From: a virus
Lineage: Duplodnaviria; Caudoviricetes
Direction: 5' to 3' (one strand)
IMG/VR virus record: IMGVR_UViG_2888055400_000002
Coordinates: 18,064-82,063 of that record
DNA: 64,000 nt
Shown here: positions 715 through 57,002 of the stretch, piece by piece
How the letters are laid out: every line of letters begins with the position of its first letter
How positions within the stretch are numbered: position 1 is the first letter of the stretch
Program-made: the position numbers and the translations under genes
The notes under the pieces: model-generated
What the model was told of the DNA's origin: nothing
The model's input: the letters and a program-made list of their open reading frames with translations, nothing else
The model's database searches: none

Positions 715-770
715 AGGTTTACTCCTATTCTAAATAATTAATAAATTTTGAATGAAAGGGTTTGGAAAGC

Positions 771-789
771 AGGCGCCCCCGCCGCGCCC
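771..789 (-). repeat. GC-rich intergenic hairpin of the beta-helix array
   Basis: Minus strand GGGCGC-GGCGGGG-GCGCCT just after the stop of 800..1591. Confidence 0.8.
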
Positions 790-799
790 GCGCGTTTAT

Positions 800-1591
800 T
801 TACGCAGCGTCTTTTATGGATTGATCATCACCACAAATATCATCACGAATTTTTATATGGCTATTAACCACGGCGTTGCCATAAATTTTTACATGATGAT
901 CGATATTTGATTTTCCATAAACCTTTGCATTATCATAAATTCTTGAGAAGCAACCAACGCGCGCCGAGCCAGAGACCTTTGCATTTCCATAGACGCTTGC
1001 ATAATCCTTAATCCATGCATTGCAAAAAACATGCGCATTGTCATAAACAGAAGCATAGACATGAATACGTGATTTACCATAGATTTGTGCATTGCCATAA
1101 ACATAGCCACAAACATGGGCATTATCATAGACCCTAGCATTGTCATAAATTTTTGCACCATCAGTAATAATAGCTTTATTGCAAACCACGGCATTACCAA
1201 AAACTTGCCCAGCGATTTTCGTATCATCATAGATTTTAGCATTCTCATAAATGCAAGCATCATTACCAAAAACCCATGCCTTTCCATTTATAGTAGCATT
1301 TCCATAAACCTTGGCTTGTCTAAAAACTTTAGATTCTTGATAAATTTTAGCATTCTCATAAAGCTTGGCATTCAAAAAAACCGCAGCATTGTCATAAACC
1401 CAGCAATTGCCATCATGAGAAAGGTTCTCTTCATTTTCAATAAAGCCCCCAAGGTCACCCGCCTTTACATCATCGAAATCCCTTAAAGCCCGAATGCGGT
1501 GCAAAGTAATTCCTTCAAAAGTGAAGTTTTCAGTTGTTAATTCATATTTTTTTGCAGAGATAACGGGGGTATTTTTTACTGTAGATTTCAT
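800..1591 (-). CDS. Left-handed beta-helix/hexapeptide-repeat phage-type protein (first gene of array A)
   Basis: Same conserved head and YDNA/YGNA repeats; SD AAAGGA at 1598-1603. Confidence 0.88.
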   Translation of the reverse strand: MKSTVKNTPVISAKKYELTTENFTFEGITLHRIRALRDFDDVKAGDLGGFIENEENLSHDGNCWVYDNAAVFLNAKLYENAKIYQESKVFRQAKVYGNATINGKAWVFGNDACIYENAKIYDDTKIAGQVFGNAVVCNKAIITDGAKIYDNARVYDNAHVCGYVYGNAQIYGKSRIHVYASVYDNAHVFCNAWIKDYASVYGNAKVSGSARVGCFSRIYDNAKVYGKSNIDHHVKIYGNAVVNSHIKIRDDICGDDQSIKDAA

Positions 1592-1638
1592 TTGAAATCC
1601 TTTCTAATCAAAAAGTTTTGAATTGACACCTATAAAGG

Positions 1639-1721
1639 CGCCGGGTGTTCAAAACACGGTGATTAGTCCGTTGCTTACACTTTTCCCATAAGGGTATTGT
1701 ATGGTGTAAGCACACCCGACA
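1639..1721 (-). ncRNA. C4-like antisense RNA, island A allele
   Basis: Folds by eye into a cloverleaf: closing stem TGTCGGGTGT/ACACCCGGCG, GCTTACAC/GTGTAAGC, CCC-TTAT-GGG, ACGG-ACTAATCA-CCGT. Segments CTAATCA and GTGTTTTGA are complementary to boxes at 1801-1819 and 1604-1622. Confidence 0.75.
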
Positions 1722-1832
1722 AAATCTTCATATACTAACAAGAGTATAAAAGATAGCCAGTTTTAAAAGGTTTTGGAAAGGTTGTTACGTAACCTATCCG
1801 CTAATCATAAGTGTTTTGATCACTTGATTATT

Positions 1833-1861
1833 TATATACAAAAATACGTATTTATTGTCAA
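1833..1861 (-). promoter_or_regulatory. sigma70-type promoter of the leader/ncRNA/beta-helix operon
   Basis: TTGAC-N17-GTATAT on the minus strand, conserved at 55984-56011. Confidence 0.65.
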
Positions 1862-2474
1862 TTATATTTTGCTATTTTTTGTATTTTTTTATGATTATTT
1901 TTTATCATATTGTGTATAAATATGCGTCATATGCCTATGAATATTTTCTATTTTATTGCGTTTATTTGACTCTATATTACGCAATGGCGTTATTTTTCTC
2001 TTTTAAACTTCATAACAACTAAAAACGCTTCTTATGATGATTATTTTTATCTTTATAAAGCATGGTTATTTTATTGAATGCCTTGTGAATATTTTTGTGA
2101 ATTTTGTTATCATTTATAAGAGCTTTGTAACTTAAGAAGCTTTAATAGAGATCGCATTTTTATAACCAACCCTTTTGATTCATTCTCTATAGCCACCGCA
2201 TCATTTTTATATCAAAGGATAATAAGATAATGCGGTTTTTATCTGTTATAAGAAGATATATAGATACCTATTGAATTCTTATATCCTTATCAAAATACCT
2301 TTTAAGGGGCTTTTGTCTCTTTTGTTAGTTTTGTCTGTAAATCTTAACAAACAATTCTTATGATTTTAGTGAGTGTTTAAACCCATATCTTATGAGAAGG
2401 CATATGGCTCTTTAAAGCCTTTCAAAAGAGAGTGTGTAATTATGAAAGGTGCTATCAAGATTATTATCGTTATT

Positions 2475-2672
2475 AGTTTTAAGGATTTTGGAGGTTTTGG
2501 GGGTTTTGGGGGTGCCTGTCTCATTTTTCTTTTAATTTTTTTCAATAAAAAATAAAAATCATTATATTTCAATATGTTATTTTTTACCAATTTTCAAAAA
2601 CAACCTATTTCCATAATACAACCTATAAATACAATCAATAATATATGTTTTGTAGGGGTTTTGGGGGTATAG
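2475..2672 (-). repeat. Iteron-like module (CAAAACC repeats around an AT-rich IHF-like site)
   Basis: Near-identical to 55025-55220; TAACATATTGAAA at 2567-2579 on the minus strand. Confidence 0.55.
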
Positions 2673-3038
2673 GGGGTGTTTTTTTGCTTTTTTAAAAATG
2701 AAGGAATTAAAAGCGTAAAGTGATATCAACATTCACTGTTTTCTTTAAAGAGAGCGTTTGAAAGATATGATGGCATCATCTTAAATTGCGCGTTAATCTT
2801 TTAAAGGCAATGTAAACAAATCTCATTCTGTTTAAGATGGGATTTCTTAAAAGCCTTAAAGCAATCCAAATGAGAGTGTTTAAAAGTGCAAGGCTTCTCT
2901 TTTTAGAAGATCGCATGATAAATCGTTCCTTTAAGATTGTACATAATCATCTTTAACAAGAGAGTATAGATATAAACTCTATACCCCTTGTAAGATGTGC
3001 ATACCCATCATGTAAAATGTGAGCATGCTTTCTTAAGT

Positions 3039-6000
3039 CTATTCAGTTTCTCTTAATTCCAATTTGGGGAGGTTCTTAACAATCTTCATTGTTTCTAAAC
3101 TTACCGTAATAACCCTTTGAAACAATTCCAATGGATAAGCAGGGTTGCCAATGGTTTCAACCGCATAGCAATTGGCATCATTAACAATGCCACTCTTTTT
3201 ATCAGTCTTTACGCATTGCCGACCCATAACCCATTCAAGAGCGGGCTTGCCATTTACGATATACTCATAAGCTTCAAGAGGGATATCTGTTATTGTGATA
3301 TTATTGTTATAAAAAACAGTAGTTTTATCTTTTTCCTTACTATTGCCAGCAAATTTCATTTCTGTAACATAATAGAATTTCTCAGGGTTCTTGATATCTG
3401 TAAGTTTTGGATTGCCTTTTTTAAAGGTCACAGGATAAGGTTCTACAGTTTCATAATTGACGTGCAAATTGCCTAATTCACGCCCTGCTGTAACAAACAT
3501 CCAAAAATCTTTAGCACTCTTTACGCAAGGGATGCGAGGGAGCTCTTTAGAGAGGTTATCAGCATAGCGAGCACGGTAATCTTCCGAGTGTAAAATCCCG
3601 TAAACATAATAGAAGATATCATCCTTAGTTATGGTTTCATTAGGATAAGCAGCTTTAAAATGTGCTAATCCTTCATCAGTGATGGCATCACGGCGTTGTA
3701 AACCAGAGGTTTTGATTTCTTCTGTAGAATTTGTAAATAAATGAGATTGGCTATTACTTCTATTTTTTGAAAGTATAGTATCTTCGTAAAGGTACAATGA
3801 AAAACATTGGCTACCACATCTATCATATTCAAATCAGGTAAATTTTTACTCATCAAAGCAGAAAAACCACTTCGTGCTCCTGTTCCTGTAATTTGTATTA
3901 CTCTATTATCAACCACTTTTCCCATAGGGAATATACGAGGCATTTGATAAACCATTTCATTGAAAGTACGATTGTAATAGAGCCATTGTCGTGTAAAAGG
4001 ACGGTAAAGCTTTGAACTAAGCAATTGTTTTCAAAATTCAAAAACTTTTCCTTTAACTAATTGCTGTTTAAGTGCACGACTCCAACTAATTTTTTGTGCA
4101 TCTGAATTGACAAAAATTATTTACAGCATTTGCACGTGTTTTATGTTCAGAATGTAAATAGGTATTATTAAAGCGTTCTACTTCGTTATTATAGAAGGCA
4201 ATCATGTTAGTCATGTTTTTCACTAAAGATTCACGGCTTGAGTTATATACCCAAACATCACGATTTGTTACCAGCCCAAGAGAGAAAGTTCAAAGAGCTT
4301 TTATCATGACCTTTCTTAATACCCATAGCTAGGAATGTTTCAAAACTGTCATCACGTTGATTTACCAATCACCATGTTTGTCTGGTGTAATAGTTCCAAC
4401 TTGATTTAGCCGCATACCATCAACACTACTAAGGTAATCAGAACGGTGAGTTTTTCTTTTGTTGTAAGATTATTGCCGATATCATGGTAGTAAATTTTAC
4501 AAGGTTTAGAAACATTAGGATTTTTGATAAATAATGTTACAGCAATACCGGTCATACTACCATTACCAAAAATATTTTCACCTTCTTGAGCCTTCCCATT
4601 GCTTAACATATTTTTGCGAATATCCCCCCGCAAATTAAGCACATAAATGCTCGTAAATTCTTTGGCTAAAGATTTTCGCAAGCCATCCATTGCTGGTTTT
4701 TCTATATAACCAGAACCAGAAACAAAGCCGATAATCCCAGCATTACTAATACGATCACTTGCCCAACGAATAGCACGAATGTAACTATCATACAAAGCTT
4801 GCATATTGGTTGCTTTCGATTGAGCAGCATAAGTCTCACGAATACGGTCATCTAAAAGTGGATAAGGAGTGTTTTTTGCGTTGTCATTTTCACTTTTTTG
4901 TCTCAAAGAATAAGGAGGATTACCAAAGATAACTTCTATATTCAGCTTTTTTTGAAGTTCCAAATAGGCGCTGTTTTCTTCTAGTAACCCTTTCATCAGA
5001 TCTTGCTTTTCAACCCTCTGAAACGTATCGGTTAATCCAATATGCTTAAAGGGAATATAATCTCCTTTCATAAGACCATGATAGGTTGCTTCAATATTTA
5101 TGGCTGCTATGTAATAGGCAAGGCAAAACAATCTCATTGGCATGGATGTCATGACGGAATTTATACTCCATATCTTCCGGTTTTATCAGATCTGATTGTA
5201 AAAGCCGTGTGATAAAGGTACCTGTTCCCGTAAAGGGATCAAGAATAGAAACACCACGGGAGCCCAAACTCTTGCAAATTCTTTGCGTAAAACATCATCA
5301 ACGGAATGAATGATAAAATCCACAACCTCAACAGGGGTATAAACAATCCCAAGTCTATCTGTTGTCGTTTTAAATGCCTTGGCAAAAAAGCTTTCATAAA
5401 GCGTAATAATGAGATTTTGTCTTGCTTGCGGGGTCGTAATACCAGAGGCACGTAATTTTACACTGTCATAAAACTCTCTAAGATCCTTTGACTCTTCTTC
5501 AATATTTGTCTTGTCTAATTCCTTTAAAATCTTATCCATTGCTTGCGAGATGGTATTGTTTTGAACAAATTCATTGCCATCAAACAAACTTCAAACACAG
5601 GGCGCGTTACAAGATGCTGTGCTAACATCTCAACTGCTTCTTCTTGGTTTAATATCACTGTTTAAATTGTTCTTTAATTCAAGATGAAAGCTCTCAAAGG
5701 CATGAGAGGCTTCACTCTTTTCATCAGAGAGCATGTTTTGAAGACGGTTGATATGGTTTTGAGCAATCTCAGCAACATTGCCAGCCCAGTTTTCCCAATA
5801 ATCCGCAATAGCAAATTTCTTCGTTAGAAGGGTTATGAGAGCATTACGGAACTCCTTAAAAAAGGGTAATCTTCCTTGTACTCCAATACTCTTAGAAGGT
5901 TCATAGGCTGGTTTTCCAATTTTTAATCCCACACTTTCTGATTTCTCATGGATTGAGATTTTATCTTCAACAGCCGTCATACTGTCTAAGGCAAGAATCT

Positions 6001-8011
6001 CTAGGGTATGACTTACATCTTGCCCTAAAATCATCTGGTTAAGGATAACTTCAAAATTCTCATCATGAGCAAGCAAAGCATTGATCACTTGCCAAACAAC
6101 CTTGTATCTCTTGTTGTGTCTTAAAGCTTGCTCAGCAGAAATCCCCGCAGGAACTCCAACGGGTAGAATGATATAACCTCTCTTTTTTCCTTTGGCACGA
6201 CGCATGATACGTCCCACCGCCTGTATGACATCAACATGACTTTTGCGGGGATGGAGAAACATGACCGCATCAAGAGCAGGGACATCCACACCTTCAGAGA
6301 GACAACGAACATTGGTTAAGACACGGCAGGTATTTTCCCCCGCATCTTCTTTAAGCCAGTCAAGAGCTTGATTACGTTTTTTTGCACTTTGTTTTCCGTC
6401 AATATGTTCAAATCTACAATGAAGAGGGGAGGTCTTTTTATAGCTTTCATAAAGAGTCCGTAATTCATCCTGAATTTCATCAGAATTAAAGGTATCACGA
6501 ATGCGTTCAGAGGTTTTAATATCTTTACAAAAAGCCAAAGCACGGCGCATGGGATTAGGGTCATCACTGAGATCAACCTTCAGATCGATTTTACTCAGAG
6601 CTTGATAACAGCCCACAATCTTTGTCTTATCATCAAGAATAAGTTCATAATTATCATCGGTCATAAGATGTTGAATGGATTGGGCTACTGCTTCTTCATT
6701 CACACCCAAAACAATAATCTTATAAGGTGCTAAAAGGTTATTCTGAACGGCTTTTGAAAAGGTATAAGTATAAAGGTTTTTGCCATAGAGCTCTTCATCA
6801 TCCATAGAAGCCAGAACAGCATTAATCTCATTGGCTTGTTTCTTGGCATTATCGGTAAAGATCTTTGGAGTTGCCGTCATATAGAGACGTTTTTTGCCTT
6901 GTATAATGCTGTTGTCATGAACCTTGACAAATTCAGATTCACTGTTGTCTGTACCCAACACAGCACCCGTGGTTCTATGGGCTTCATCACAAATGATCAG
7001 ATCAAATTCAGGTAAATGATATTTCTTTTGAGCATCCGATATCACTTGGATTGAATGATAAGTTGAAAAGATAACAGTCATGACATCAGCAGAAGTCTTA
7101 TTGGCTTTGCTAGCAAGCTGTTTTGCATCTGTTGTAGCAGGCAGGGCAAGATCAGAAGTATCAAGACCAGCATCATCATCTTGGTTTTTACGCCGCTTGC
7201 CAACTTGTGTATCAGAACATACAGCAAAGGAACGCAAGGGTACCTCTGTATCACTTGTCCATTCTCTTATCGTTTGAGACATGAGAGCAAGAGAAGGCAC
7301 TAAAAACAAAACACGCTTACCTTTTCCGGCTATTTGTTCTGCTATCTTGAGACTGGTGAAGGTTTTTCCCGTTCCACACGCCATAATCAGCTTGCCACGG
7401 TCTGCTTCTTGTAAACCCTCACAAACAGCTTCAAGGGCTTCTTTCTGATGATCTAAAAGCTTTTTCTTCGTTTGCTCTTTAAGGACAACCGTTTCTTTTC
7501 CTTCAAAACGACTCCAATCGATTTGACTGTTTTCTAAATCAAACAAATTAATCTGTTGAATGCGAACTTCTTGACCTTCACAGGTGTGAGAAGCATTATC
7601 ACTCCAATCACTTTCCGTGCTATCGATAAGAAGTCGACGGGTGAAGATCTTTTTGCCAGAGGCAGCAATAAAACTATCAATATCTTCTTTTTTAATGCAA
7701 TGGGAAGCATTATAGCATTTACATTGAATAGCAACATAGCCTCCTTCATCACGAATTTTAGCGACTAGATCAATGCCAATATCCCGTCCATCTTCTCCAC
7801 GCTCTTTAGCCCATTCACAATAAGTTTGAACCTGTTCATATTCTTGGCATTGCAGAGGATCTTGCGTCAAATAAGCCATGACAAGGTTTTCAAAGAGAGT
7901 TCCCAATTCACGGGGTGATTTTGCTTTTTGACGGTAGGATTGTAAGAGAGAGCGTAAAGAAGATTGTTTGTAATCAGACTTGAGGGTTTGAAGCATTATG
8001 AGAAACTCCAT
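3039..8011 (-). pseudogene. Type ISP restriction-modification enzyme (nuclease-SF2 helicase-N6 MTase-TRD), multiply frameshifted
   Basis: Fragments 5630-8011, 5186-5587, 4406-5152, 3665-4024 and 3039-3797 are collinear with the intact 49791-54755. Motifs IQCKC, GTGKT, DEAH and NPPY are present. Confidence 0.88.
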
Positions 8012-8825: not shown

Positions 8826-10592
8826 TTGTTTTTGGGATTTTTACGCCAAAGTTCTCTTTTGAGAATTTTTCGTGCCATTTTTGTTTTATTGGGCATGTTT
8901 ACAGGTGTAAGTGTTTATGCGCGCTCCTTAGCTTTTTTACACTCCCCTACAGATAATTTTTCTCGCCAACAATCTGAGAAGCAACGATTAGAAAGAATTG
9001 AGAATTTACGCGCTTTAACGCCTAAAAGGATCAAGACGCCTTCAGAGCAAAATCCAGAAACGCTTTTGGGTGGGAAACAATGTTTTCCAATTCATGCTAT
9101 TGTTGTTGAGGGAGTGCATCATGTCAAAAAGCGCTCTATATCAGCCGTAACAGAGCCTTATGTTGGAAGATGTATCGGTCTTGTCGATATTCAGCTCTTA
9201 ATCAAGCAGTTAACCAAAGTTTATTTGGATCAAGGCTATGTGACGGCGCGTTTTTATATTCCTGATCAAGATATCAAAAATAGCAAGACACTCAAATTTG
9301 TTGTTGTTGAGGGAAAGCTTTCAGATATTTATTATAATGGTTTACCGGCATCTCGTTATAACACTGTTGTGTGGAGCGCTTTTCCTGGGCTTAAAGGTCA
9401 TGTTCTGAACATGCGCGATATTGAACAGGGGCTTGATCAGATCAACAGACTTCAGTCAGCGCATGCCAAAAGTGAACTTCTACCGGGGCGTGAAGATGGT
9501 GGTACCATTGTTAATATTAGCAATCACCCTGAGAAAGCTTTTAAGGTTACTGTTTCTCATGACAATATGGGGCAATCCTCCACCGGTTATGCGCGTTATA
9601 GTGCAGGCTTAAAGGGTGAAAATATTTTAGGGATGAATGATGCGTGGGATTTTGGTTATCAACGCAGTGAGACAGATTATTGGGGTGGGAGCAAGCAAGA
9701 AGGACATAGCAATAATTTTTCAGCGAGTGTGAGTATTCCTTACGGTTATTGGACTTTTGGATTGAATGGCACTGTTTATAATTACCAAAGCATTATCCCT
9801 GGCAATTTTACCGATATTGAGACGACGGGGGATTCCAGTGAGTTACACGCCAGTACAAGCAGGGTTCTTCACCGCGATAGTGTTTCGCTTACAACCTTGA
9901 ATTTAGGTCTTTCTTATAAAAGAACCAACAATTACCTTCTTGGCAATAAGATAGAGGTTGGTAGCCGTCAATATAGCGTCGCTAATTTTGGGATTTCGCA
10001 TTCGCGCCAGATGTTGGGTGGGACATGGACCTTTGATGTGAGTTATTTGCAAGGGCTCCCCTTGTTTCATTCAGTAAAGAAACATGCTCCAGGGGCAGGG
10101 GATGGCGAGCCACAATTTTCTAAATTTACCGGCACACTTAGTGTCATGACGCCTTTTAAGGTAGGGGGCTTGGATTTTATACTGAGCAATCTTTTGAGTG
10201 GTCAATATTCCCCGCATAATTTATTGGGTGCGGAACAGATTTCGTTGGGTGGCGCTTCCAATGTTCGTGGAACGCGTGAGAGTTTGCTTTTTGGCAATAA
10301 TGGTTTTTTTAGCCGTAATGATTTGTCTTTGCGCACCATTCCGTGGAGCAACAGCGCTTCTCTGAAAAAGGTTTTGGGGGAACTTCGTCCCTTTGTTGGT
10401 TTGGACTATGGGCGTGTGTTTTCGCAAGCCTTGTATGGAATGACCGGTGAACAGCTTGCCGGTTGGACAGCAGGTGTCAAGCTTGCGGGGGGCATGGTCT
10501 CTCTTGATGCCAGTTATTCCAGTATTTTTTGGAGCACAGTTAAGCACAAAAAATCAGGAACATTTTTTATGACATTAACAATGGAACTTTAA
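8826..10592 (+). CDS. fhaC: TpsB/ShlB/FhaC/CdiB outer-membrane transporter
   Basis: POTRA-like region (CFPIHAIVVEG...YLDQGYVTAR), EQGLDQINRL motif, loop motif LGGASNVRG, beta-barrel C-terminus; directly upstream of a TpsA. Confidence 0.92.
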   Translation: MFLGFLRQSSLLRIFRAIFVLLGMFTGVSVYARSLAFLHSPTDNFSRQQSEKQRLERIENLRALTPKRIKTPSEQNPETLLGGKQCFPIHAIVVEGVHHVKKRSISAVTEPYVGRCIGLVDIQLLIKQLTKVYLDQGYVTARFYIPDQDIKNSKTLKFVVVEGKLSDIYYNGLPASRYNTVVWSAFPGLKGHVLNMRDIEQGLDQINRLQSAHAKSELLPGREDGGTIVNISNHPEKAFKVTVSHDNMGQSSTGYARYSAGLKGENILGMNDAWDFGYQRSETDYWGGSKQEGHSNNFSASVSIPYGYWTFGLNGTVYNYQSIIPGNFTDIETTGDSSELHASTSRVLHRDSVSLTTLNLGLSYKRTNNYLLGNKIEVGSRQYSVANFGISHSRQMLGGTWTFDVSYLQGLPLFHSVKKHAPGAGDGEPQFSKFTGTLSVMTPFKVGGLDFILSNLLSGQYSPHNLLGAEQISLGGASNVRGTRESLLFGNNGFFSRNDLSLRTIPWSNSASLKKVLGELRPFVGLDYGRVFSQALYGMTGEQLAGWTAGVKLAGGMVSLDASYSSIFWSTVKHKKSGTFFMTLTMEL

Positions 10593-10617
10593 GCGTTTTT
10601 TATTGGGGAGTTAACGT

Positions 10618-13600
10618 ATGAGATATGAGAAGAGAGCAAACAGAGCAGCTTTATTAGGTGTTTTAGTCTCCAGTACGATGCTCAAAAAGGTTTTTCTAGG
10701 TGGGATAGGTTTTTCTTGTTTGTTAGCACCTTCAGTGGTTCAGGCGCAAATTACTTCTGATCCTAACGCAGGTAGCGCATATCGTCCGGATATAGTGGCA
10801 GCGCCCAATGGGGTTCCCTCGATTGATATTGTCACACCCAACGGCAAGGGCTTATCGCACAATAAATATTACGATTTTAATATTGGCAATCTAGGTGTTA
10901 TTTTCAACAATCATGCGCAAGAAGTAGGGCAATCGCAGTTGGGGGGCATTATGCCGGGCAATCCGCATTTGCGTTTCACGGGTTCAGCGAAAGTGATTTT
11001 AAATGAAGTGACCAGCGGTAAACGCAGCGCGCTTAATGGTCCAGCGGAAGTTTTTGGGCGCCAAGCTGATGTGATTATAGCCAATCCCAATGGCATAAGT
11101 TGTGATGGTTGTGGTTTTATCAATACGCCCCATGCGACCTTAACCACGGGTGTCCCCGAAATTGATGCGAGTGGTTTTTTGAAAGGCTTTGAGGTGCGAG
11201 GTGGGGACATCACCTTTGGAGCAAAGGGAGCCAATTTTTTCTCTGGCAAGGGGGCTGTTGATATTGTTGATATTGTTTCACGCACGGTGCATTTTGAAGG
11301 AGCTGTTGCGGGCAAGGATATTGGGGTGAGTGCTGGGACGGGGCATTTTGATTATGCTTCTCGTCAAATGAAGGAGCTCACCGATATTACCGGCAAACCG
11401 GAATATGCGATAGATGGGTCAGCTTTAGGGGCTCTACAGGCGGATCAGATTAAACTTGTAGCGACAGAACAAGGCGTTGGCGTTCGGATGCGTCATGATA
11501 TGGCGGCGAATGCGGGGCAGTTGCAGCTTTCTGCTGATGGAAAAATTTCCTTAAAAAATGTTTTTGGTCATGGGGGTGTTGTTCTTCAATCAAAGAGCAA
11601 GAGCGTGTTGGCAAAAAGCGTCACATCGAAAAAACATATTGAGATTGCAGCCAAAAAAGATGTCACATTAGAGATGGTTGGCGCCGATGGTGATTTGAAA
11701 GTAGAGGCGCAGGGGGGGCTTTTATCGATTGCAGGCAAGGCAACATCTGGAGGCAATATGGAGTTGTTTTCGCTTGATGCTATGAAAGTTTCTGGTCTTG
11801 GTTCTGGTGCTGATATAGCTCTTGAAGCGGGTGGAGATTTGAAGCTTGAGGGGGTCGTGTTAGCTGAAGGAAACCTTAAGGCACATGCTGGTGGTGATAT
11901 CCAAGCTGGTCTTTTAGCTGGTGGGGTTGATATGGCAGCAACGGGTGCTGCTGGTGTTGTTGTTCTTGGTGCCCAAGGAGATGTTGATCTTCAAAGTGTG
12001 GGAGGGAGAATTAACGCCGCAAACATTTATGGGGCAGGAGATGTGACCCTAGTTTCGTATGATGGGCTTTTTGTTTCCCAATCGATATTGTCTCACCAAA
12101 ATGTAGCAATCCATGCACAACTAAACACAAATGCCCCTGTTCATTTTGGACAAGTTTTAGCCTATGGCAAGGCCAATATTGAGGGTGGGGCGGTTGATTT
12201 TGCTTCGCTGATGACGGGCGGTGATGCCGTTTTAACGGTAGGCAGCCTTGATGCAGGCACACTGATGACAGGTTTAGATTTTGTTAGCTCTCAAGTGAGC
12301 CCTTCGAATCCTTCCGGTGCTCTTGTTTTTTATGACAAAGGTTCCCTTTCTATCACGGCACAAAGGGGCATAAAGGTTGAACATATTATCAGTGGTGGCA
12401 ATATTGATCTTTTTGCTGGCGACGACATTTATTACGATCAGGTCATTGGCTATGGCACAGCAACATTGACATCGGTATCAGGAGGGATCAGTGTTGAGAA
12501 TGTGCTGTCTGCTAAGGGGGATGTGAGATTGACAGCAAATACTCTCGATTTAAGCAATGATCGTTCTCATATTTACACGCCGCAAACGTTATTTTTAAAT
12601 GCGGATCATATTTATGTTTCGGGCAGCACGCTGATTTATGGCGGTTTAGATTTTAACAGCACCAATGTTCTTGATATTCACCATGCACGGCTACAAGCCA
12701 TTACCACTGAGGGGGGAACAGGAGATATTCTCTTTGTTGCTCCAGGCGTTATGGTGGATGAGACTACATCGGTTTTAGCGGCACGAGATTTTGTGATCAA
12801 AACGGGCCGTTTAGAGAATAGCGGTCAATTAGCAGCAGGGCAGGATTTAGCCTTTAGCGTGACGGGGGATGTGACCAACAGCAAAACGGGCTTAATTTAT
12901 GTGAAGGGCAATGGTGCTCTCAAAGTTGATGGCACTGTGTTGAATGATTTTGGCGCCATAATAGCAGAGGGTGATTTGTTTTTTACCAATGCAGATGGCA
13001 CAGGAAAGAGCCTTTCCCTTGTCAATAAAGCAGGCTTTATTCAAGCCGGTGGCAACTTAAATATCCAAACCAACACCCTCAAAAACGAAGCCGATAGCAC
13101 GCCTGTTATCACGGAAAAAACGGAATATAGCGATATTTCATTCGAAAGATCAAAGGGTTCTGATCAGCTCAGTGATGGGATGTTATATCATGATACGAGA
13201 TTGAATAGCTGGGGCAAAGGAAAGCTTTCTAAGTGGCCGGTATTGAGTGACACGAAGAACTTTATATTTAAACAGCAGATTTGGGCGAGCAAAGAAGAAA
13301 CCTATGGCAAAACAACATTGAAAGACGGAACAGTTTATAAGGCATTTACTTGGGAATATAATGATAACAGAAAAGGCATAGAACAGTATTCCTGGAATGG
13401 TGATAGATGGAGAGAAGGATTCTTGGGGCTCTCGTTCCTAAACGAAAACTGGTCACACATGACAGAAGAAACTGTCACGCAAGAGTTTTCGCATAAACCC
13501 ACTGTTTCGGGGATGATAGAGTCTCACGGCAATCTGATCATTAACGCTGATAGCATTGACAACCATTATAGCATTATAAGAGCGGAAGGAAATGCCGATA

Positions 13601-16600
13601 TTCACGCCAATGTGCTCACCAATTTAGGGGCAACAGCTTATAAAAACACCTATATGCATTGTAATGCAAACACAGATGCTTATTGTTATGGCTATCAAGC
13701 TGATGGAAGCCGCGATGTTTCTTTAGATATAGCCAATGGCAAGTATCGCCAAACTGGCTCAGAAGCTTTGGAGAGCGTTCCTGGTCTTGTCCAAGCGGGT
13801 GGCACGTTGAATTTGGTGGTCGATCAACTCCACAACACGGCAGCGGAAGGTTCGATTACAGGGGATGCGCATTTTGAGGCAAAAGCCGTTGGGGGTGATC
13901 CACTAGGGGCGCTGAGCGGTTTGACTGGGGCTGGTGCTTTGTTTACGCCAAATATCGCCTTAGATGGTACAGCTGGTGTTTCGGATGGGAGTTCATTGCC
14001 TTTACCAAAACCCCAATCGGGTGGAATTGGGGGCACGCTACCCAACCAGAATTTCCTTTATGAAACGCGGGCAGAATTCCTTGATGTTGGCAAGTTTTAT
14101 GGCTCAGCCTATTATTTGAACAGAATTGGCTACAAACCTGATCGGGAGATTTTTTTCTTAGGCGATGCTTATTTTGAAAAGCAATTGATTGAGAAACAAA
14201 TGCGTGATCTGGTTGGTCAGGGTTTGGGAAAAGGTTCCTTTATTCCTGGAAGTGATGCTATTGAACAAGTCAAAACCTTGCTTGATGTCGGGGCGGAATA
14301 TGCAAAAGCACACAATCTCCCTTTTGGTGAGGCTTTGAGTAAAGAACAATTGGCGTCCCTAGAAGCCCCGATGGTGATTTATGTGCGCCAACAGATCAAG
14401 GGCATGGATGTTTATGCACCGGTGCTTTACATCCCTGAAAAAGACAGAGCCTCCTTTGTTTCTGCTGGTGCTTTGATTATGGGGGATGATGTCAATATCA
14501 CCAGCCAGAATACAAGCAATTCAATGATAACCAATTCTGGGCGGATAAATGCAAACCACCAATTGCATGTGCATGGTGGGGATCTCCTCAGTCAAGGGGG
14601 GCATTTTGCTGCTGGTGGTGATGCTGTTTTACTTGCGGAGAAGAATATTCGTTTTGAAGCAGGGCGAACAACGGTTGACGGCGTGGAGACCGTTTTAAAC
14701 ACCGAGGCGCTTTCTACAGGGGGCAATGCGAGCGTGATCGCCAAACAAGATCTCACAGCCTCAGGGGTTAAGATCAGCACAGGGGGCGATCTTGCCATGG
14801 CCACAGAACAAGGCAACTTGACGATAGGTTCAGCAGAAACCCACTACCATGATGAACAGGGTGATGCCACCATGCATCATAAATCTGCGTTAAACTCTGG
14901 AGGATCGACGACACTTGTCTCTGGAAAAGATTTGAATATCTTAGGCTCTGATGTTCAAGCAACGGATAATCTTTCCTTACAAGCAAAAGGCAACGTTTCG
15001 ATTGATGCCACGCGCAACAGTGCCAATAGCCATCACGGGGATCAAACCTCTCATGTTGCCTTACACAATGGCTCTCATTTAAGTTCTGGAAAAGAGACCA
15101 CGGTTCTCTCTGGAAAAGATATTCATATGGCTGCTTCCGATATAGATGCCAAGGGCAATGTTGTTCTTGGTGCACAAGGGGAAATAGCGATAGGGGTGAG
15201 AGAAGATGAAATGGAGTATCATCTTCGCGCCAACAACACCAAAGTCGATATGCAAGCCTTGATTTCCCAGGGATCAACAATAAAATCTGGAGGCGATACC
15301 ACTGTCGTTGCAGGGCAGGATGGAAAGAAGCATGATCTCACCATCACAGGCAGTTCTGTTGCGGCTGATGGCAAGGTGGGGCTAAAAGCCAGCAATGATA
15401 TTGTGATCACCAATGCAGAGGATAGCTTACATTATGAGATGTCGTACCATAAAGACGGGGGAACATTCAGCAGCAGCAAATCCGTGCATAACAAGGTGGA
15501 TGCTGTCCAAGTTTCCGGTTCACTCATATCTGGGGGCAAAGGCGTTGCCATTGACTCAGGAAACAACACGGAAGTTGTAGCCTCGACGCTCATAGCCGGT
15601 AAGGCAGGGGAAACGTCAGGAGAGAAAACACCAGAAGATCAGGCAAAAGCGGATATTACCATTCACTCTGGTGGAAATATTGTTATCAAAGGTGCCCAAG
15701 AACATTTTGATCAGCAACAGCAATCCTCGTCAAGTAGCCTTTTGCACGAGGAATCTTCAGATAAATCTGAATCGCACACCACAACGGTTTCCTCTGTTCT
15801 AGGTGCGACGGGCAACATTGATATGGAAGCGCAAGGGGATGCCAAGATTACTGCTTCTCATCTGCTTTCTGGTCAAGACATCAATGTGAGTGCAGAAGAT
15901 GTGATGATTGATGGCATGACAGACCACCATAGCAGCCATTCAGAGGAGCATGAAACGGGTTTTGGCGTGGGATCAGGCAAGGGCTTTGTATCGATATATG
16001 GAAGTGAAGGCAAAACGCAAAATGAAGAGAGTTTTGAACATCAAGGCTCTTCTTTGAATGCGGATGGCACTCTCAACATCACCGCCAAGAAAAAAGATGT
16101 GACAATTGTGGGCTCTGATGTTGAAGGGGAAAATGTTCATCTTACCGCAGCGCATGATGTTAATGTGCTTGTTGGCCATAATAGCCATAAGTCAAGCTCA
16201 AAAGAAGAGCGGGAAGGTTTTGGCATTCAGTTTGAAAAGAGCAGCAGCAGTGCCTCTGTCGGTGTTGGGGTTGCCAGTGCGAAGGATACGGGTGATGAGT
16301 GGGAAACGACCTCTGTTCAATCGCACATCACGGCGAAGAAAGATGTACAGATCACTGCCGGCAATGATGTGACCATGCAAGCGGCAGATGTTTTGGCGGA
16401 TCGTGATCTAAATATCGATGCCGGCAATAATGTCACACTATCAGAAAGCCATGATATCTCCAATACACAGGAAACCCATGAAAAATCCTTTGCCGGTGTT
16501 ACAACCACTGTCAATGTGGGTGTTCTTGATACTGTACAAGGCTTAAAAGATTCAGCGGACCACATGAATAATAAGGATGGAAATAACACAGTTATTAATG

Positions 16601-18750: not shown

Positions 18751-19160
18751 AAAAAGCCTTTAAATTATCCAGTGCGATAGTTCTGTTTATTATAGCTGGG
18801 TGTAATTTTTTTAAGCCTTCTCCAGGTTACTTATATATGTGGGAGAAACCGGGGGCAGATTTTACTGAAGTAGGAAAAGCTTTGTTGGAATGCGGAATGC
18901 CAACACCTTATGATGTCGATCCAGAAAATAGAAAGCTTAGTGTTAATGAGGATGCAACAATTTATGCTTGCATGATCCAAGCAGGATTCCGCTATAAAGA
19001 TGAAGAGGTGTCGAGGGCTGGAGGATGGTGTTATACATTTAAAGAGGAAAACCTACCCATTTGTCGTCCAGGGGCTATCATTCCGCAACGAAGTGTCAAG
19101 AAGCGCTTAAATAGCCCTTTTTGTAAAAAATATAAAAATGCACCTGAATGCCAACCTTAA
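18747..19160 (+). CDS. Lipoprotein, putative cognate immunity protein
   Basis: MKKAFKLSSAIVLFIIAG-C lipobox; translationally coupled to the TpsA; Cys pattern LLECG..ACMIQAG..WC..PICRPG..SPFC..PEC. Confidence 0.8.
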   Translation: MKKAFKLSSAIVLFIIAGCNFFKPSPGYLYMWEKPGADFTEVGKALLECGMPTPYDVDPENRKLSVNEDATIYACMIQAGFRYKDEEVSRAGGWCYTFKEENLPICRPGAIIPQRSVKKRLNSPFCKKYKNAPECQP

Positions 19161-19180
19161 GTCTTGCTTGTGATGATCAA

Positions 19181-19227
19181 CAATCCGCCATCCTTGCCTT
19201 CGCTTGGACTGGCGGGATTGTTTTCTT
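19181..19227 (+). terminator. Stem-loop after the immunity gene (copies at 21849-21888 and 27070-27109)
   Basis: CAATCCGCCA...TGGCGGGATTG followed by a T-rich tract; three copies. Confidence 0.55.
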
Positions 19228-19338
19228 AATCCACCATCTCAATTTAGTCCTACCTGTCTTAAACACAGTATAGATAGAAAATATCAACAGGCTTTTGAGC
19301 TTTTTTATCGTAAATAAATCCATTGAAAGAGGGGAAAA

Positions 19339-19698
19339 ATGAAGAAAACTTTAAAACTATTGAGTTGCATGGCTCTGTTAAGTATCGCTGGATGTGTTAA
19401 CTCAATTCCCTCACTTTCTCCAGCAATATGGAGAAAGAAAATACTTTTAGAATGTGGAGTACCGGATTTTGATAAGGTTGTGGCGCTAGATTTGAATCAA
19501 TTTGCTAGTATTGAAATGTGTATGGCGCAATCAGGTTTTCGCCCTAGCTTTCCAATACAAGGTTGGTGTGAAAATCATAAATCCGAAAAGCTTCCCATTT
19601 GTCGTCCTGGTGCTGTCATGCCTCAACGAAGTGTTGAGAGACGTTTAAAGAGCCCTTATTGTAAAAAGCATCCAGAACAATATGAATGTAAACCTTAA
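19339..19698 (+). CDS. Lipoprotein, orphan immunity paralog
   Basis: Lipobox SIAG-C; same Cys framework as 18747..19160. Confidence 0.8.
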   Translation: MKKTLKLLSCMALLSIAGCVNSIPSLSPAIWRKKILLECGVPDFDKVVALDLNQFASIEMCMAQSGFRPSFPIQGWCENHKSEKLPICRPGAVMPQRSVERRLKSPYCKKHPEQYECKP

Positions 19699-21418: not shown

Positions 21419-21825
21419 AAAAAGCCTTTAAATTATTAACTGTAATAGTTTTGTTAATTATTGCTGGATGTGAGGATTTTTTCAAGCCTCCTCTAGGTAA
21501 CGTATATGGGTGGGAGAAGCCAGGTGCAGATTTTACTGAAGTAGGAAAGGCATTGTTAGAATGCGGAATGCCGAGTCCTGAATATCTTGATAGAGAAAAT
21601 AGGCGCTTGAGCTATAATGATAGTGCAACAATTTATGCTTGCATGATCCAAGCAGGATTCCGTGATAAACTTAAAAAAGAGGTGGGAACTTGGTGTGAGA
21701 ATTTTAAAGCCGAAAATCTCCCCATATGTCGACCAGGCGCTGTCATCCCAAAACGAAGTGTCAAAAAGCGCTTGAATAGCCCGTTTTGTAAAAGAAGTCC
21801 TGTGCAGCCTGAATGCCAACCTTAA
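21415..21825 (+). CDS. Lipoprotein, putative immunity protein of orphan module 1
   Basis: ATGA overlap; lipobox IIAG-C; family Cys pattern. Confidence 0.8.
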   Translation: MKKAFKLLTVIVLLIIAGCEDFFKPPLGNVYGWEKPGADFTEVGKALLECGMPSPEYLDRENRRLSYNDSATIYACMIQAGFRDKLKKEVGTWCENFKAENLPICRPGAVIPKRSVKKRLNSPFCKRSPVQPECQP

Positions 21826-22007
21826 GTCTTGCTGCTGATCACAATCAACAATCCGCCATCCTTGCCTTTGCTTGGACTGGCGGAATTGTTTCCTTAATTC
21901 ACCATCTCAATTTAGTCCTAACCTGTCTTAAACACAGTATAGACAGAAAATATCAACAGGCTTTTGAGCTTTTTTATCGTAAATAAATCCATTGAAAGAG
22001 GGGAAAA

Positions 22008-22487: not shown

Positions 22488-22541
22488 AGAGAGAGTTGGA
22501 CAAAAAGCACGAATGATGAAGGGAGTCAAAATAGTGCCCTT

Positions 22542-46550: not shown

Positions 46551-46641
46551 AAAAAACCTTGTCACATAAGGATGGACAAGGCTTTCTCTTATAAACCAAT
46601 AAGAATATAGCAAAATCCATCCTGTGACGCAACGTTATAGG

Positions 46642-49470: not shown

Positions 49471-49790
49471 TACCCCCCTTCATACCGTCAAGTGAAATGT
49501 ATCATAAAACTCTTCAAAATTGCATATTTGATCTCTTAAAAGCACATATTGGAGTTATTTCAATTTCCCATAAAATGAATAGCAAATTTCAGTAGTTTAC
49601 TTTTTATAGGCTGTTTATAAACTGCATCTTGATTGCATCTTGTTAAATTTTTTTGACGCATTTTGTAGCTTTTTGGGCGGTTTTCGCCCATTTCAGACTC
49701 GATATTTGTTCTAAATGTATTTAATAAACTCCATTTCGATTCTTTCGAAGTCAATTGATTAATGTCATAAGACTATGGAGTTTCTCTATA

Positions 49791-55983: not shown

Positions 55984-56011
55984 TTGACAATAAATACGTA
56001 TTTTGGTATAT
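55984..56011 (+). promoter_or_regulatory. sigma70-type promoter
   Basis: TTGAC-N17-GTATAT, matching the alphaproteobacterial CTTGAC-N17-CTATAT pattern; conserved in island A. Confidence 0.65.
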
Positions 56012-56025
56012 AAATAATCAAGTGA

Positions 56026-56046
56026 TTGAAAACACTAAACATCAAG
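56026..56046 (+). promoter_or_regulatory. Upstream antisense target (a1/b1-like)
   Basis: TTGAAAACAC and CATCAAG are complementary to 56188-56197 and 56179-56185. Confidence 0.75.
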
Positions 56047-56123: not shown

Positions 56124-56207
56124 TGTCGGGTGTGCTACACCATACAATACCCTTCTAGGGAAAAGTGTAAGCAACGGACTTGATGCCGTGTTTTCAAACA
56201 CCCGGCG
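56124..56207 (+). ncRNA. C4-like antisense RNA, island B allele
   Basis: Cloverleaf: TGTCGGGTGT/ACACCCGGCG, GCTACAC/GTGTAAGC, CCCT-TCT-AGGG, ACGG-ACTTGATG-CCGT, unpaired GTTTTCAA. Confidence 0.75.
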
Positions 56208-56231
56208 CTCTTATTTTTATAAGGGTATCAA

Positions 56232-56255
56232 TTGAAAACATTAAACATCAAGGAG
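56232..56255 (+). promoter_or_regulatory. Downstream antisense target (a2/b2-like) overlapping the RBS
   Basis: TTGAAAACA..CATCAAG with SD AGGAG at 56251-56255 and ATG at 56264. Confidence 0.75.
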
Positions 56256-56263
56256 ACACTAGC

Positions 56264-56992
56264 ATGGTTGCTACTGTTAATAAGAAAACATCATCCAAAA
56301 AATATGAGTTCACATATGATATGCAATGCGTCAATGGTCATTTATTGTACCGTATACGTGCTTTAAAAGACTTTGGTGATGTAAAAAAAGGTGATCTCGG
56401 TGGCTATATCGAAAAGCAAAGCAACCTATCTCATAAAGGGGATTGCTGGGTTTATGATCATGCTCGTGTTTTCCAAAATGCTCGTGTCTTTGGGAATGCA
56501 AAAGTAAAGGGTTATTTTGTTGATGTATATGGCAATGCAAAAATTTATGGAAATGCGATTTTCGAAGGTCGTACAATAAATGATTATTGTGAGGTTTATG
56601 GCAATGCGCATGTTAGCAACGCCGTGGTTATTGAAGGCAATGCAAAAATTTATGATAACGCCTCTGTAACGAATTATGCTCATATTTCTGATGATGCTGT
56701 GATTTGTGATGATGCCCATGTCGGGGGCAATGCAAAAATAAGCGGCGCTGCTCATATTTGTGATCATTCTCAAGTTTGTGATGATGCCGTGGTTTGTGGG
56801 GCTCTTATCTCAGGCAATTCTTATGTACATAGTGCCGCCTCTTTAACTTCTGATGATCATATTTGGGACGAGGCATATCCCGAATTTGGTAGTGAAGATG
56901 ATTACTATCGTCACGAATATTATGATGATTATGGTTATGATGATGATTACGAATATGATTGCAATTCTGAAGATGCCAATCAAGCTGCGTAA
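56264..56992 (+). CDS. Beta-helix/hexapeptide-repeat protein with an acidic Tyr-rich tail
   Basis: Conserved head plus hexapeptides; tail EDDYYRHEYYDDYGYDDDYEYD. Confidence 0.88.
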   Translation: MVATVNKKTSSKKYEFTYDMQCVNGHLLYRIRALKDFGDVKKGDLGGYIEKQSNLSHKGDCWVYDHARVFQNARVFGNAKVKGYFVDVYGNAKIYGNAIFEGRTINDYCEVYGNAHVSNAVVIEGNAKIYDNASVTNYAHISDDAVICDDAHVGGNAKISGAAHICDHSQVCDDAVVCGALISGNSYVHSAASLTSDDHIWDEAYPEFGSEDDYYRHEYYDDYGYDDDYEYDCNSEDANQAA

Positions 56993-57002
56993 ATAACACT
57001 GT

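What the first reader, a model, noticed from the sequence alone, without database searches (positions are those of the whole stretch)
1592..1861. Island A allele of the cloverleaf antisense RNA has a different specificity code
Seen on the minus strand: leader boxes TCAAAACAC and TGATTAG (1811-1819, 1801-1807), RNA segments GTGTTTTGA and CTAATCA (1649-1657, 1660-1666), and downstream boxes TTCAAAAC and TGATTAG (1615-1622, 1604-1610) abutting the SD. Island B uses TTGAAAACAC and CATCAAG at the same positions while the RNA stems stay conserved. Compensatory change at three separate sites is strong evidence of real pairing. Established: P1 and P7 are heteroimmune through such changes in C4. Inference: two co-resident islands belong to different immunity groups.
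Basis: partly seen in the sequence, partly recalled or inferred. Interest (0 to 1): 0.8.

Follow-up and report, generated by a model that had tools for sequence, protein, structure and literature searches.

The report
Allele-specific C4-like antisense RNA switch
Two related mobile islands in a Bartonella prophage region each carry a small antisense RNA whose two recognition boxes match only that island's own target sites, the same lock-and-key design that phages P1 and P7 use, here placed in front of genes of unknown function.

Summary
On the minus strand at 1861-1589 lie a promoter, boxes a1/b1, an 81-nt RNA (Rfam RF02221 sRNA-Xcc1, 54.6 bits against a cut-off of 53), boxes a2/b2, the SD and the ATG. 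Island B (55984-56266, + strand) has the same layout. Its stems are almost unchanged (3 of 66 non-box RNA columns differ), but its boxes differ at all three sites.

Comparative data show the pairing is real. In 63 distinct related loci, 52 have the 7-nt loop perfectly complementary both upstream and downstream, against 0 of 3760 non-cognate pairs. In an 85-sequence alignment, 5 of the 7 b1:b' pairs change on both sides.

The layout matches the annotated P1 c4 locus, but the Rfam C4 and c4-a1b1 models do not hit. The gene controlled here is a YdcK-like beta-solenoid array, not an antirepressor. Sister loci in Bartonella do control AntA/Rha antirepressors.

The family is greatly expanded: 591 hits in 58 of 81 genomes of the genus, up to 46 in one genome. 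Specificity is a two-box code.

"Different immunity groups" is only partly supported. The A and B codes differ, but trans action, repression and any immunity phenotype are untested, and recent duplications leave identical codes within one genome.

Earlier scan notes on this RNA concern this genome only.

The parts
1833..1861 (-). Island A leader promoter: TTGACA (1861-1856), 17-nt spacer, TATATA (1838-1833)
   Evidence: Read. An upstream TTGACA-type promoter is found in nearly all 85 aligned relatives. The simple scanner did not list it, because it requires T at the last -10 position.
1811..1819 (-). a1 box TCAAAACAC, complementary to a'
   Evidence: The longest cognate a':a1 match averages 8.6 nt against 6.1 for non-cognate pairs in 63 loci.
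1801..1807 (-). b1 box TGATTAG, complementary to the b' loop
   Evidence: The b1:b' helix has 5 of 7 pairs with changes on both sides and 90.6% of cells paired in 85 sequences.
1775..1799 (-). Leader hairpin directly after b1 (GGAUAGGUU / AACCUUUCC)
   Evidence: 8 of 9 pairs change on both sides and 83% of cells are paired. It is present in the leader MFE.
1640..1720 (-). Antisense RNA body: three-way junction with a 9-bp closing stem. The Rfam hit spans 1632-1720.
   Evidence: RF02221 at 54.6 bits. MFE -32.3 kcal/mol, z -4.24, the same fold as the Rfam consensus. Stems are 99.0-99.5% paired in 85 sequences.
1660..1666 (-). b' CUAAUCA, in the 8-nt loop of the last hairpin
1649..1657 (-). a' GUGUUUUGA, in the single-stranded joiner between the last hairpin and the closing stem
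1625..1642 (-). Hairpin after the RNA (GGCGCC..GGUGUC). It shares 3 bases with the closing stem and has no U tract.
   Evidence: Leader MFE. No terminator-like site was found.
1615..1622 (-). a2 box TTCAAAAC
1604..1610 (-). b2 box TGATTAG, abutting the SD AAAGGA (1603-1598); ATG at 1591-1589
   Evidence: b2 is perfect in 52 + 6 of 63 loci.
800..1591 (-). First controlled gene: a YdcK-like beta-solenoid protein of 263 aa. A second paralog lies at 205-714, and the array runs off the window.
   Evidence: PF18836 at 4.4e-20; NF040481 at 123 bits, below its cut-off of 350. PDB 2F9C/2PIG YdcK at 6e-20. phrog_5070 at 2.9e-81, function unknown.
55984..56012 (+). Island B leader promoter: TTGACA, 17 nt, TATATA
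56026..56046 (+). Island B a1 TTGAAAACAC (56026-56035) and b1 CATCAAG (56040-56046)
56125..56206 (+). Island B RNA: b' CUUGAUG at 56179-56185, a' GUGUUUUCAA at 56188-56197
   Evidence: RF02221 at 45.9 bits, below the cut-off. MFE -27.7 kcal/mol, z -2.33.
56232..56266 (+). Island B a2 TTGAAAACA, b2 CATCAAG overlapping the SD AAGGAG, and ATG 56264. It is followed by five YdcK-like paralogs up to 59991.

Best explanation
Each island carries a C4-type antisense RNA switch in the leader of its YdcK-like gene array.

A promoter transcribes, in order: a1-b1, a hairpin, an ~81-nt three-way-junction RNA, a hairpin, a2-b2, the SD and the first gene. The RNA shows b' in a hairpin loop and a' in the adjacent single-stranded joiner.

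Shown: b' pairs with b1 and with b2, and a' pairs with a1 and a2. Each locus has its own box sequences, so specificity is a two-box code. The codes of islands A and B differ.

Inferred from the P1/P7 precedent and from the position of b2 on or next to the SD: the free RNA binds a2-b2 of its own island's mRNA in trans and blocks ribosome entry at the first gene. Downstream paralogs, which have no boxes, would follow by polarity.

Also inferred: in the unprocessed leader, a1-b1 pairs in cis with a'-b', which masks the RNA and leaves the RBS open. A newly arrived or newly induced element would then give a burst of expression, and released RNA would shut it off as it accumulates. In islands A and B the RNA is probably cut out of the leader, with RNase P as the P1 precedent. 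In the antirepressor-type sister loci it has its own consensus promoter.

Because the boxes differ, the RNA of island A should not silence island B, and the reverse should also hold.
For: Layout and exact complementarity at three sites in both islands.

Same order of elements as the annotated P1 locus: promoters P2c4/P1c4, a1, b1, C4 RNA of 77 nt, a2, b2, and icd starting 10 nt after b2.

Comparative test. Of 63 distinct loci with full flanks, 52 have the whole b' loop complementary to both flanks, 8 to one flank and 3 to neither. There are 32 b' alleles. None of 3760 non-cognate ordered pairs match both flanks.

Covariation on 85 sequences. The b1:b' helix has 5 of 7 pairs changed on both sides. 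The whole-structure covariation score is 0.376, against 0.220 in shuffles (0 of 500 reach it) and 0.10 or less when slid.

Fold. b' lies in an 8-nt loop and a' is unpaired, z -4.24.

Duplex energies are -18.4 to -23.1 kcal/mol for cognate pairs and -8.4 to -11.8 for non-cognate pairs.

The leader MFE pairs a1b1 with a'b' in cis and leaves the SD free (z -6.5 and -3.6).

Hints of trans action:
- In many Ant/Rha-type loci, a TTGACT-N18-TATAAT promoter ends 6 nt before the RNA 5' end.
- Orphan RNA genes exist with a promoter but no flanking boxes (L004, L052, L104).
- One locus has a leader whose a1b1 match the RNA of another locus in the same genome (L081/L115 against L109).

Sister loci control AntA/Rha/KilAC antirepressor-type genes, the canonical C4 cargo.

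P1 biology comes from passages of PMC8198154 (the c4-icd-ant operon; C4 is needed for full ant repression) and PMC6906374 (small ImmI differences underlie P1/P7 heteroimmunity).
Against: No RNA data: no RNA run holding the stretch was listed, so size, ends and abundance of the RNA are unknown.

Covariation proves pairing but cannot tell cis pairing from trans pairing.

The Rfam C4 (RF01695) and c4-a1b1 (RF03163) models do not hit the region at E up to 10, although they hit P1 at 68.8 and 51 bits.

Island B scores below the RF02221 cut-off.

In islands A and B the internal promoter is degenerate (best match: 7 of 12 in A, 8 of 12 in B), so release of the RNA depends on an unshown processing step.

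The a boxes of A and B share 7 bases, and the predicted non-cognate duplexes are not zero.

The controlled proteins have no known function, so 'immunity' is not established.

A relative, IsrK, activates rather than represses (PMC4825925, abstract).
Confidence: 0.72

Rival explanations
1. A purely cis-acting leader switch. b'/a' toggle between a1b1 and a2b2 within one transcript, like an attenuator. No free RNA acts in trans, so there is no cross-element specificity to speak of.
For: The MFE of the whole leader pairs a1b1 with a'b' in cis. Covariation is equally explained by cis pairing. In islands A and B no good promoter lies directly before the RNA.
Against: Many Ant/Rha-type relatives have a consensus promoter placed to start exactly at the RNA. 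Orphan RNA genes lack flanking boxes. The leader of L081/L115 matches another locus's RNA. The very high conservation of the three-way junction (99% paired) suits a stable released RNA. The P1 relative acts in trans (PMC8198154, passages).
Confidence: 0.1
2. P4 CI-type control. Pairing of the RNA with the upstream and downstream boxes on the nascent transcript causes premature transcription termination. Translation block is not the main effect.
For: The islands are P4-like: P4-type integrase, Toprim/DUF7146 and DUF3987. The target-RNA-target layout equals seqA-CI-seqC as described in PMC4825925 (discussion passage). Conserved hairpins follow b1 and the RNA.
Against: No terminator-like site was found in either leader. 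b2 sits on or next to the SD in nearly all loci, as in P1. The RNA lies downstream of the replication genes, not in front of them.
Confidence: 0.1
3. IsrK-type activation. Binding of the short RNA opens an otherwise closed RBS and switches the array on.
For: IsrK of Gifsy-1 works this way (PMC4825925, abstract). The isrK model matches the a1b1 leader of P1, so the families are related.
Against: In the predicted leader folds the SD is already unpaired. The RNA's b' pairs with the first bases of the SD itself, which should block ribosomes, not help them. The isrK model does not hit the window.
Confidence: 0.05

Closest known systems
C4 antisense RNA and the immI operon (c4-icd-ant1/2) of phages P1 and P7
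   Same: The order is promoter(s), a1, b1, RNA, a2, b2, RBS (P1 annotation). b' lies in a hairpin loop and a' in the 3' joiner of a closed junction. b2 lies at the SD. Alleles have compensating changes at all sites; P1/P7 heteroimmunity rests on small ImmI differences (PMC6906374, passage). Sister loci in Bartonella control AntA/Rha/KilAC genes.
   Different: The RNA is of another Rfam family: RF02221 hits, while RF01695 and RF03163 do not. The closing stem is 9 bp against about 17. The a2-b2 gap is 4 nt against 22. No C1-type operator is known. The cargo in islands A and B is a YdcK-like beta-solenoid array, not icd/ant. The host element is a P4-like integrative island.
CI RNA of satellite phage P4 (seqA - seqB - seqC)
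   Same: It is a processed antisense RNA flanked by two complementary target sites on a P4-type element (PMC4825925, discussion passage; for the island's P4-like genes).
   Different: P4 CI causes transcription termination and controls the replication operon. Here the downstream target is the RBS of a gene array placed after the replication and restriction genes, and no terminator-like sites were found.
sRNA-Xcc1 (Rfam RF02221) of Xanthomonas campestris and its Xylella homologues
   Same: Same covariance-model family. It is multi-copy on islands in Xylella, with 7 copies, 5 of them clustered (PMC12189769, passages).
   Different: It is described there as an integron- or island-encoded trans-acting sRNA linked to virulence regulators. 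In the passages I read, no flanking a1b1/a2b2 targets are mentioned. The original 2011 paper is not held.
IsrK of Salmonella Gifsy-1
   Same: A prophage leader RNA of the C4/P4 circle. The isrK model matches the a1b1 leader part of P1.
   Different: It activates translation of a read-through mRNA (PMC4825925, abstract). It does not hit the window.

Membership tests
Rfam RF02221 (sRNA-Xcc1) | Covariance-model score at or above the gathering score of 53 bits | tested here: met
   Island A scores 54.6 bits. Island B scores 45.9 bits, E 6e-5, below the cut-off, so that copy alone is a sub-threshold relative.
Rfam RF01695 (C4 antisense RNA, clan CL00128) | Covariance-model hit | tested here: not met
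   No hit at E up to 1 in the window or at E up to 10 in 1560-1860. The P1 positive control scores 68.8 bits.
Rfam RF03163 (c4-a1b1) | Covariance-model hit on the leader holding a1 and b1 | tested here: not met
   No hit. The P1 control scores 51 bits.
C4-type antisense switch (functional class) | Target-RNA-target layout, with a1b1 upstream and a2b2 downstream of the RNA on one strand | tested here: met
   52 of 63 related loci.
C4-type antisense switch (functional class) | Recognition boxes exposed (hairpin loop and joiner) in a stably closed RNA | tested here: met
   Fold. Stems are 99% paired with two-sided changes.
C4-type antisense switch (functional class) | The downstream target overlaps or abuts the RBS of the first gene | tested here: met
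   P1's b2 ends 10 nt before icd; here b2 ends 12 nt (A) and 11 nt (B) before the ATG.
C4-type antisense switch (functional class) | The RNA is released from the leader by RNase P and acts in trans to repress translation | not testable with these tools
   No RNA run holds the stretch. Only indirect hints are available.
C4-type antisense switch (functional class) | The controlled gene is an antirepressor | tested here: not met
   Islands A and B control YdcK-like proteins. Of 60 related loci, 33 have YdcK-like first genes, 8 AntA, 4 Rha, 12 other, and 3 are too short to classify.
P4 CI immunity | RNA-dependent terminators at the target sites | tested here: inconclusive
   0 terminator-like sites by a simple scan. 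Rho-dependent sites cannot be seen this way.

The most novel reading that the evidence does not exclude
Bartonella genomes hold natural libraries of tens of mutually orthogonal C4-type RNA locks, built on a combinatorial two-box code. One complete genome has 22 b' x 10 a' alleles giving 35 distinct codes. These locks would give each island, prophage or cassette a private on/off address. This would allow many near-identical P4-like islands and prophages to share a 2-Mb genome without silencing each other. The YdcK-like beta-solenoid arrays sit where P1 keeps its antirepressor, and could be a new class of burst-expressed effector in conflicts between mobile elements.
Probability: 0.3. Interest if true: 0.75.

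Novelty: new variant of a known kind. Interest (0 to 1): 0.55.

Why it matters
The mechanism is a textbook one (P1/P7 c4), so the pairing itself does not surprise. Three things are new in what I could see.

(1) The Rfam family sRNA-Xcc1 is described in the literature I could read as a trans-acting, virulence-linked sRNA. Here it behaves as a C4-type leader antisense RNA with flanking cognate targets, also in Desulfovibrionaceae and in other alphaproteobacteria.

(2) The family is expanded to as many as 46 copies per 2.7-Mb Bartonella genome, with dozens of naturally orthogonal codes. This is a ready-made set of orthogonal riboregulators, and a way to ask how many related mobile elements coexist in one genome.

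(3) It places YdcK-like phage proteins under the same control, and in the same position, as antirepressors. These proteins occur in 96 phage records and are all of unknown function. This gives a concrete first hypothesis and an assay for them.

Bartonella are animal and human pathogens whose islands carry adhesin, toxin-delivery and restriction genes, so the control logic of these islands is of practical interest.

Tried and rejected
RNA evidence. The look-up of sequencing runs listed no RNA holder. The only holder is a contig set with 0.21 of the words, and the added RNA runs are single-cell runs of another organism label. I did not lay reads. This says nothing about expression.

Promoter and terminator scanner. 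It missed the leader promoter, because it requires T as the last -10 base, and found no terminators. I used my own scan instead.

Within-genome exclusivity. On draft genomes, identical b' alleles looked under-represented (0 of 65 pairs, P 0.07; 2 of 252, P 0.008). I do not rely on this. Draft assemblies collapse identical repeats, and orthologous loci inflate sharing between genomes. In one complete genome, b' is reused with different a' (17 same-b' pairs among 35 lineages), 10 recent duplicate pairs carry identical codes, and uniqueness of the rest is not significant (P 0.15).

Generality of the RNA-YdcK link. In 4 of 96 phage records with YdcK-like genes (Mannheimia, Xanthomonas CP1, Liberibacter SC1, Curvibacter), the gene sits inside an operon and no Rfam RNA is found at E up to 0.1. 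In those four the link is not seen. The other 92 records were not examined.

Brt RNAs of B. henselae (PMC5387305, passages). This is a different multi-copy family, upstream of XRE genes. I rejected it as the same element on gene context only; the sequences were not compared.

Literature. No held paper contains both 'Bartonella' and 'Xcc1' (0 papers). 18 papers mention YdcK, and none of the 15 listed titles or abstract starts deals with its function (listing only). Supplements are closed. Additional File 1 of PMC2864571, which describes the c4 and c4-a1b1 motifs, may already note alphaproteobacterial examples and could not be seen. The original sRNA-Xcc1 paper is not held. Citron & Schuster 1990 and the RNase P work on C4 are recalled, and seen only as reference-list entries.

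Rows dropped:
- 20 of 95 pattern matches did not fit my regex for the RNA 3' half. Most are chance hits in unrelated taxa, and a few are real but divergent.
- 7 of 70 distinct loci were left out for short flanks.
- 2 of 38 and 1 of 46 copies could not be parsed.
- Alignment A2: 14 non-Bartonella rows of 99 were left out, because their flanks cannot be aligned, and two rows identical to the window were replaced by the window.
- G002: only 9 of its 29 hits (those on larger contigs) were fetched.

Full report
WHAT IS THERE.

Read on the minus strand, 1861-1589 holds the following:
- a TTGACA-17-TATATA promoter (1861-1833);
- box a1 TCAAAACAC (1819-1811) and box b1 TGATTAG (1807-1801);
- a hairpin (1799-1775);
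- an RNA gene (1720-1640) with b' CTAATCA (1666-1660) and a' GTGTTTTGA (1657-1649);
- a second hairpin (1642-1625);
- a2 TTCAAAAC (1622-1615) and b2 TGATTAG (1610-1604);
- the SD AAAGGA, and the ATG at 1591.

The RNA is the only match of the window above an Rfam gathering score: RF02221 sRNA-Xcc1, 54.6 bits against 53. A second copy, at 45.9 bits and below the cut-off, lies at 56125-56214 on the plus strand. It has the same layout but other boxes: a1 TTGAAAACAC, b1 CATCAAG, b' CTTGATG, a' GTGTTTTCAA, a2 TTGAAAACA, and b2 CATCAAG overlapping AAGGAG.

Inside the RNA, 3 of 66 non-box columns differ between the two copies, against 7 of 17 box columns (p 3.9e-4). The composite a..b target pattern of each island occurs nowhere else in the 64 kb.

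CONTEXT.

The window is part of an 82-kb IMG/VR provirus record, and these are the record's only two RF02221 hits.

Both RNAs stand in front of arrays of YdcK-like beta-solenoid genes. The evidence for that family is PF18836, NF040481 below its cut-off, PDB 2F9C/2PIG at 6e-20, and phrog_5070 of unknown function.

Island B reads: P4-type integrase, a Toprim/DUF7146 primase (split into two ORFs), DUF3987, an intact 1666-aa Type ISP restriction enzyme, a 114-aa ORF, the RNA, and five paralogs. Island A is collinear with it from the Type ISP gene to the array. Identity is 78% over the Type ISP gene (broken into pieces in A), 96% over a spacer, and 81% over the leader.

Earlier notes of this scan describe the islands as insertions in a Bartonella prophage. 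The genus is borne out by my own scan.

IS THE PAIRING REAL?

A pattern from the conserved core was scanned over IMG/VR (8 loci) and over one genome per species (83 stretches, mostly Bartonella).

Of 95 matches, 75 parse as this RNA, and 70 of these are distinct. Among the 63 with full flanks:
- 52 have the whole 7-8-nt loop perfectly complementary both upstream and downstream;
- 8 have this on one side;
- 3 have it on neither side.

There are 32 different loop alleles. None of 3760 non-cognate locus pairs match both flanks. The a' box matches a1 and a2 over 8.6 and 8.0 nt on average, against 6.1 and 5.7 for non-cognate pairs.

The same logic holds in Desulfovibrionaceae, Brevundimonas, Sphingomonas and Croceibacterium loci.

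On an 85-sequence alignment, the b1:b' helix has 5 of 7 pairs with changes on both sides. The other two pairs, AG:CU, are constant, and they are the first bases of the SD in b2. The four internal stems are 99.0-99.5% paired, and the hairpin after b1 has 8 of 9 pairs with two-sided changes. The overall covariation score is 0.376, against 0.220 in shuffles (0 of 500 reach it) and at most 0.10 for slid partners.

The RNA folds on its own into the Rfam consensus, with b' in an 8-nt loop and a' unpaired (-32.3 kcal/mol, z -4.24). The island B copy is weaker (z -2.33).

HOW IT PROBABLY WORKS.

The annotated P1 genome shows the same series: operator and promoters P2c4/P1c4, a1, b1, the 77-nt C4 RNA, a2, b2, and icd starting 10 nt after b2. 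In P1 the C4 RNA is needed for full repression of icd-ant (PMC8198154, passages). Small ImmI differences make P1 and P7 heteroimmune (PMC6906374, passage).

By analogy, and because b2 sits on or beside the SD, I take the free RNA to block ribosome entry at the first gene. The later paralogs have no boxes, only GC-rich hairpins between them, so they would depend on polarity.

Predicted duplexes are -21.5/-19.1 kcal/mol (RNA A with A targets) and -23.1/-18.4 (RNA B with B targets), against -8.4 to -11.8 for the four crossed pairs. In these predictions the upstream site binds better than the RBS site.

In the fold of the whole unprocessed leader, a1b1 pair in cis with a'b', open the RNA's closing stem and leave the SD free (z -6.5 and -3.6). 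This suggests a burst-then-shut-off circuit, with a1b1 as a mask or decoy. This step is inference.

Many Ant/Rha-type sister loci have a TTGACT-18-TATAAT promoter ending 6 nt before the RNA (11 of 12 matches). Islands A and B have only a degenerate version (7 and 8 of 12), so their RNA must be cut from the leader. RNase P is the P1 precedent, recalled and not tested.

Three hints point to trans action:
- orphan RNA genes with a promoter but no boxes (L004, L052, L104);
- L081/L115, whose leader boxes fit the RNA of L109 in the same genome;
- the promoter placed to start at the RNA's 5' end in the sister loci.

None of this replaces an experiment, and covariation alone cannot tell cis pairing from trans pairing.

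FAMILY QUESTIONS.

The RNA is a member of RF02221, with island B sub-threshold. The C4 (RF01695), c4-a1b1 (RF03163) and isrK models do not hit, even at E 10 on 301 bases. On P1 they score 68.8, 51 and 35.1 bits, and isrK falls on the a1b1 leader. The element therefore works like C4 but is not a member of the Rfam C4 clan as it is currently drawn.

The first gene behind the RNA in 60 related loci is YdcK-like in 33, AntA in 8, Rha in 4 (one with KilAC), a small unknown protein in 12, and cut off in 3. The canonical antirepressor cargo thus exists in the same genus, and the YdcK-like arrays occupy its place.

YdcK-like genes occur in 96 phage records. In the four I examined they lie inside operons without any such RNA.

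HOW FAR THE 'IMMUNITY GROUP' READING GOES.

RF02221 hits number 591 in 58 of 81 genomes of the genus, with 0 in 14 control genomes. Individual genomes have 11, 29, 19 and 46 hits.

In two draft genomes all (a',b') codes are distinct: 10 copies with 9 b' alleles, and 19 copies with 18. The pairs that share b' differ in a'.

Pooled draft data suggest that identical b' is avoided within a genome (P 0.008). But drafts collapse repeats. In a complete 2.7-Mb genome, 45 parsed copies give 22 b' and 10 a' alleles and 35 codes. Ten pairs, 98.6-100% identical over the leader, carry the same code, six of them in a ~52-kb duplicated segment. The remaining 35 are all distinct, but not beyond chance (expected 1.7 identical pairs, P 0.15).

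My conclusions are these. Specificity is a combinatorial two-box code. Islands A and B have different codes. Selection for exclusivity, and any immunity phenotype, remain unproven.

NOVELTY.

The c4 motif, its a1b1 partner and their spread in Proteobacteria and phages were published in 2010 (PMC2864571, table and one passage). a'/b' matching has been done for APSE phages (bioRxiv 10.1101/2020.03.17.996009, passage).

I found no held paper linking Bartonella to this RNA and none on YdcK function (listing only). Supplements could not be read.

I rate it a new variant of a known kind. The mechanism is ordinary. The RNA family and cargo are unusual, and the expansion is striking.

Noticed in passing
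Genus-wide; G048:C1: RF02221 RNAs are hugely expanded in this genus: 591 matches in 58 of 81 genomes, and up to 46 in one complete 2.7-Mb genome. 23 genomes have none, and 14 control genomes have none.
   Followed up: partly
L095 (G001:C4:150600-152500), L104, L113, L044, L060: Several RNA genes stand in tandem 300-900 bases apart, each with its own boxes and a short gene. This recalls the clustered sRNA-Xcc1 copies reported in Xylella.
   Followed up: no
L004:1512-1806, L052:7667-7961, L104:1228-1522: Orphan copies of the RNA (loop CTTGTGA) have a TATAAT promoter but no flanking a/b boxes. The same loop allele occurs with boxes at other loci (L144, L153).
   Followed up: partly
L081 / L115 against L109 (same genome, G003): One locus has leader boxes a1b1 that fit the RNA of another locus, while its own RNA fits only its a2b2. 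It is a recombinant leader that would wire two loci together.
   Followed up: partly
window 3039-8011 (-) against 49755-54755 (+): The Type ISP restriction-modification gene is intact in island B (1666 aa). In island A it is broken into at least three ORFs, at 78% DNA identity.
   Followed up: partly
window 46624-47545 (+): The island B primase (DUF7146 + Toprim_3) is split into two 144-aa ORFs, probably by a frameshift or a stop.
   Followed up: no
window 2320-2809 (-) and 54885-55376 (+): This stretch upstream of the RNA promoter is 96% identical between the islands, far more than its surroundings. In B it holds a 114-aa ORF with no Pfam or PHROG family. In A only shorter ORFs are listed there.
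   Followed up: no
window 715-800 (-); 56995-57060, 57750-57830, 58550-58630, 59130-59200 (+): Each YdcK-like paralog is followed by a GC-rich hairpin containing GCGGGGGCGC, in otherwise AT-rich DNA. None of the internal genes has a/b boxes.
   Followed up: no
L129 4231-4312 (phage P1): The Rfam isrK model matches the a1b1 leader of P1 (35.1 bits, below its cut-off), not the C4 RNA. IsrK therefore looks like a relative of the target leader.
   Followed up: no
G048:C1 about 34-72 kb and 86-124 kb: Six RNA copies recur at a constant offset of about 51.9 kb with identical leaders, which indicates a recent large tandem duplication in that genome.
   Followed up: partly
window 8826-27049 (+): There is a two-partner secretion transporter (ShlB/FhaC family), a 2710-aa protein, and three repeated ~2.6-kb modules between the island A integrase and its restriction gene.
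   Followed up: no
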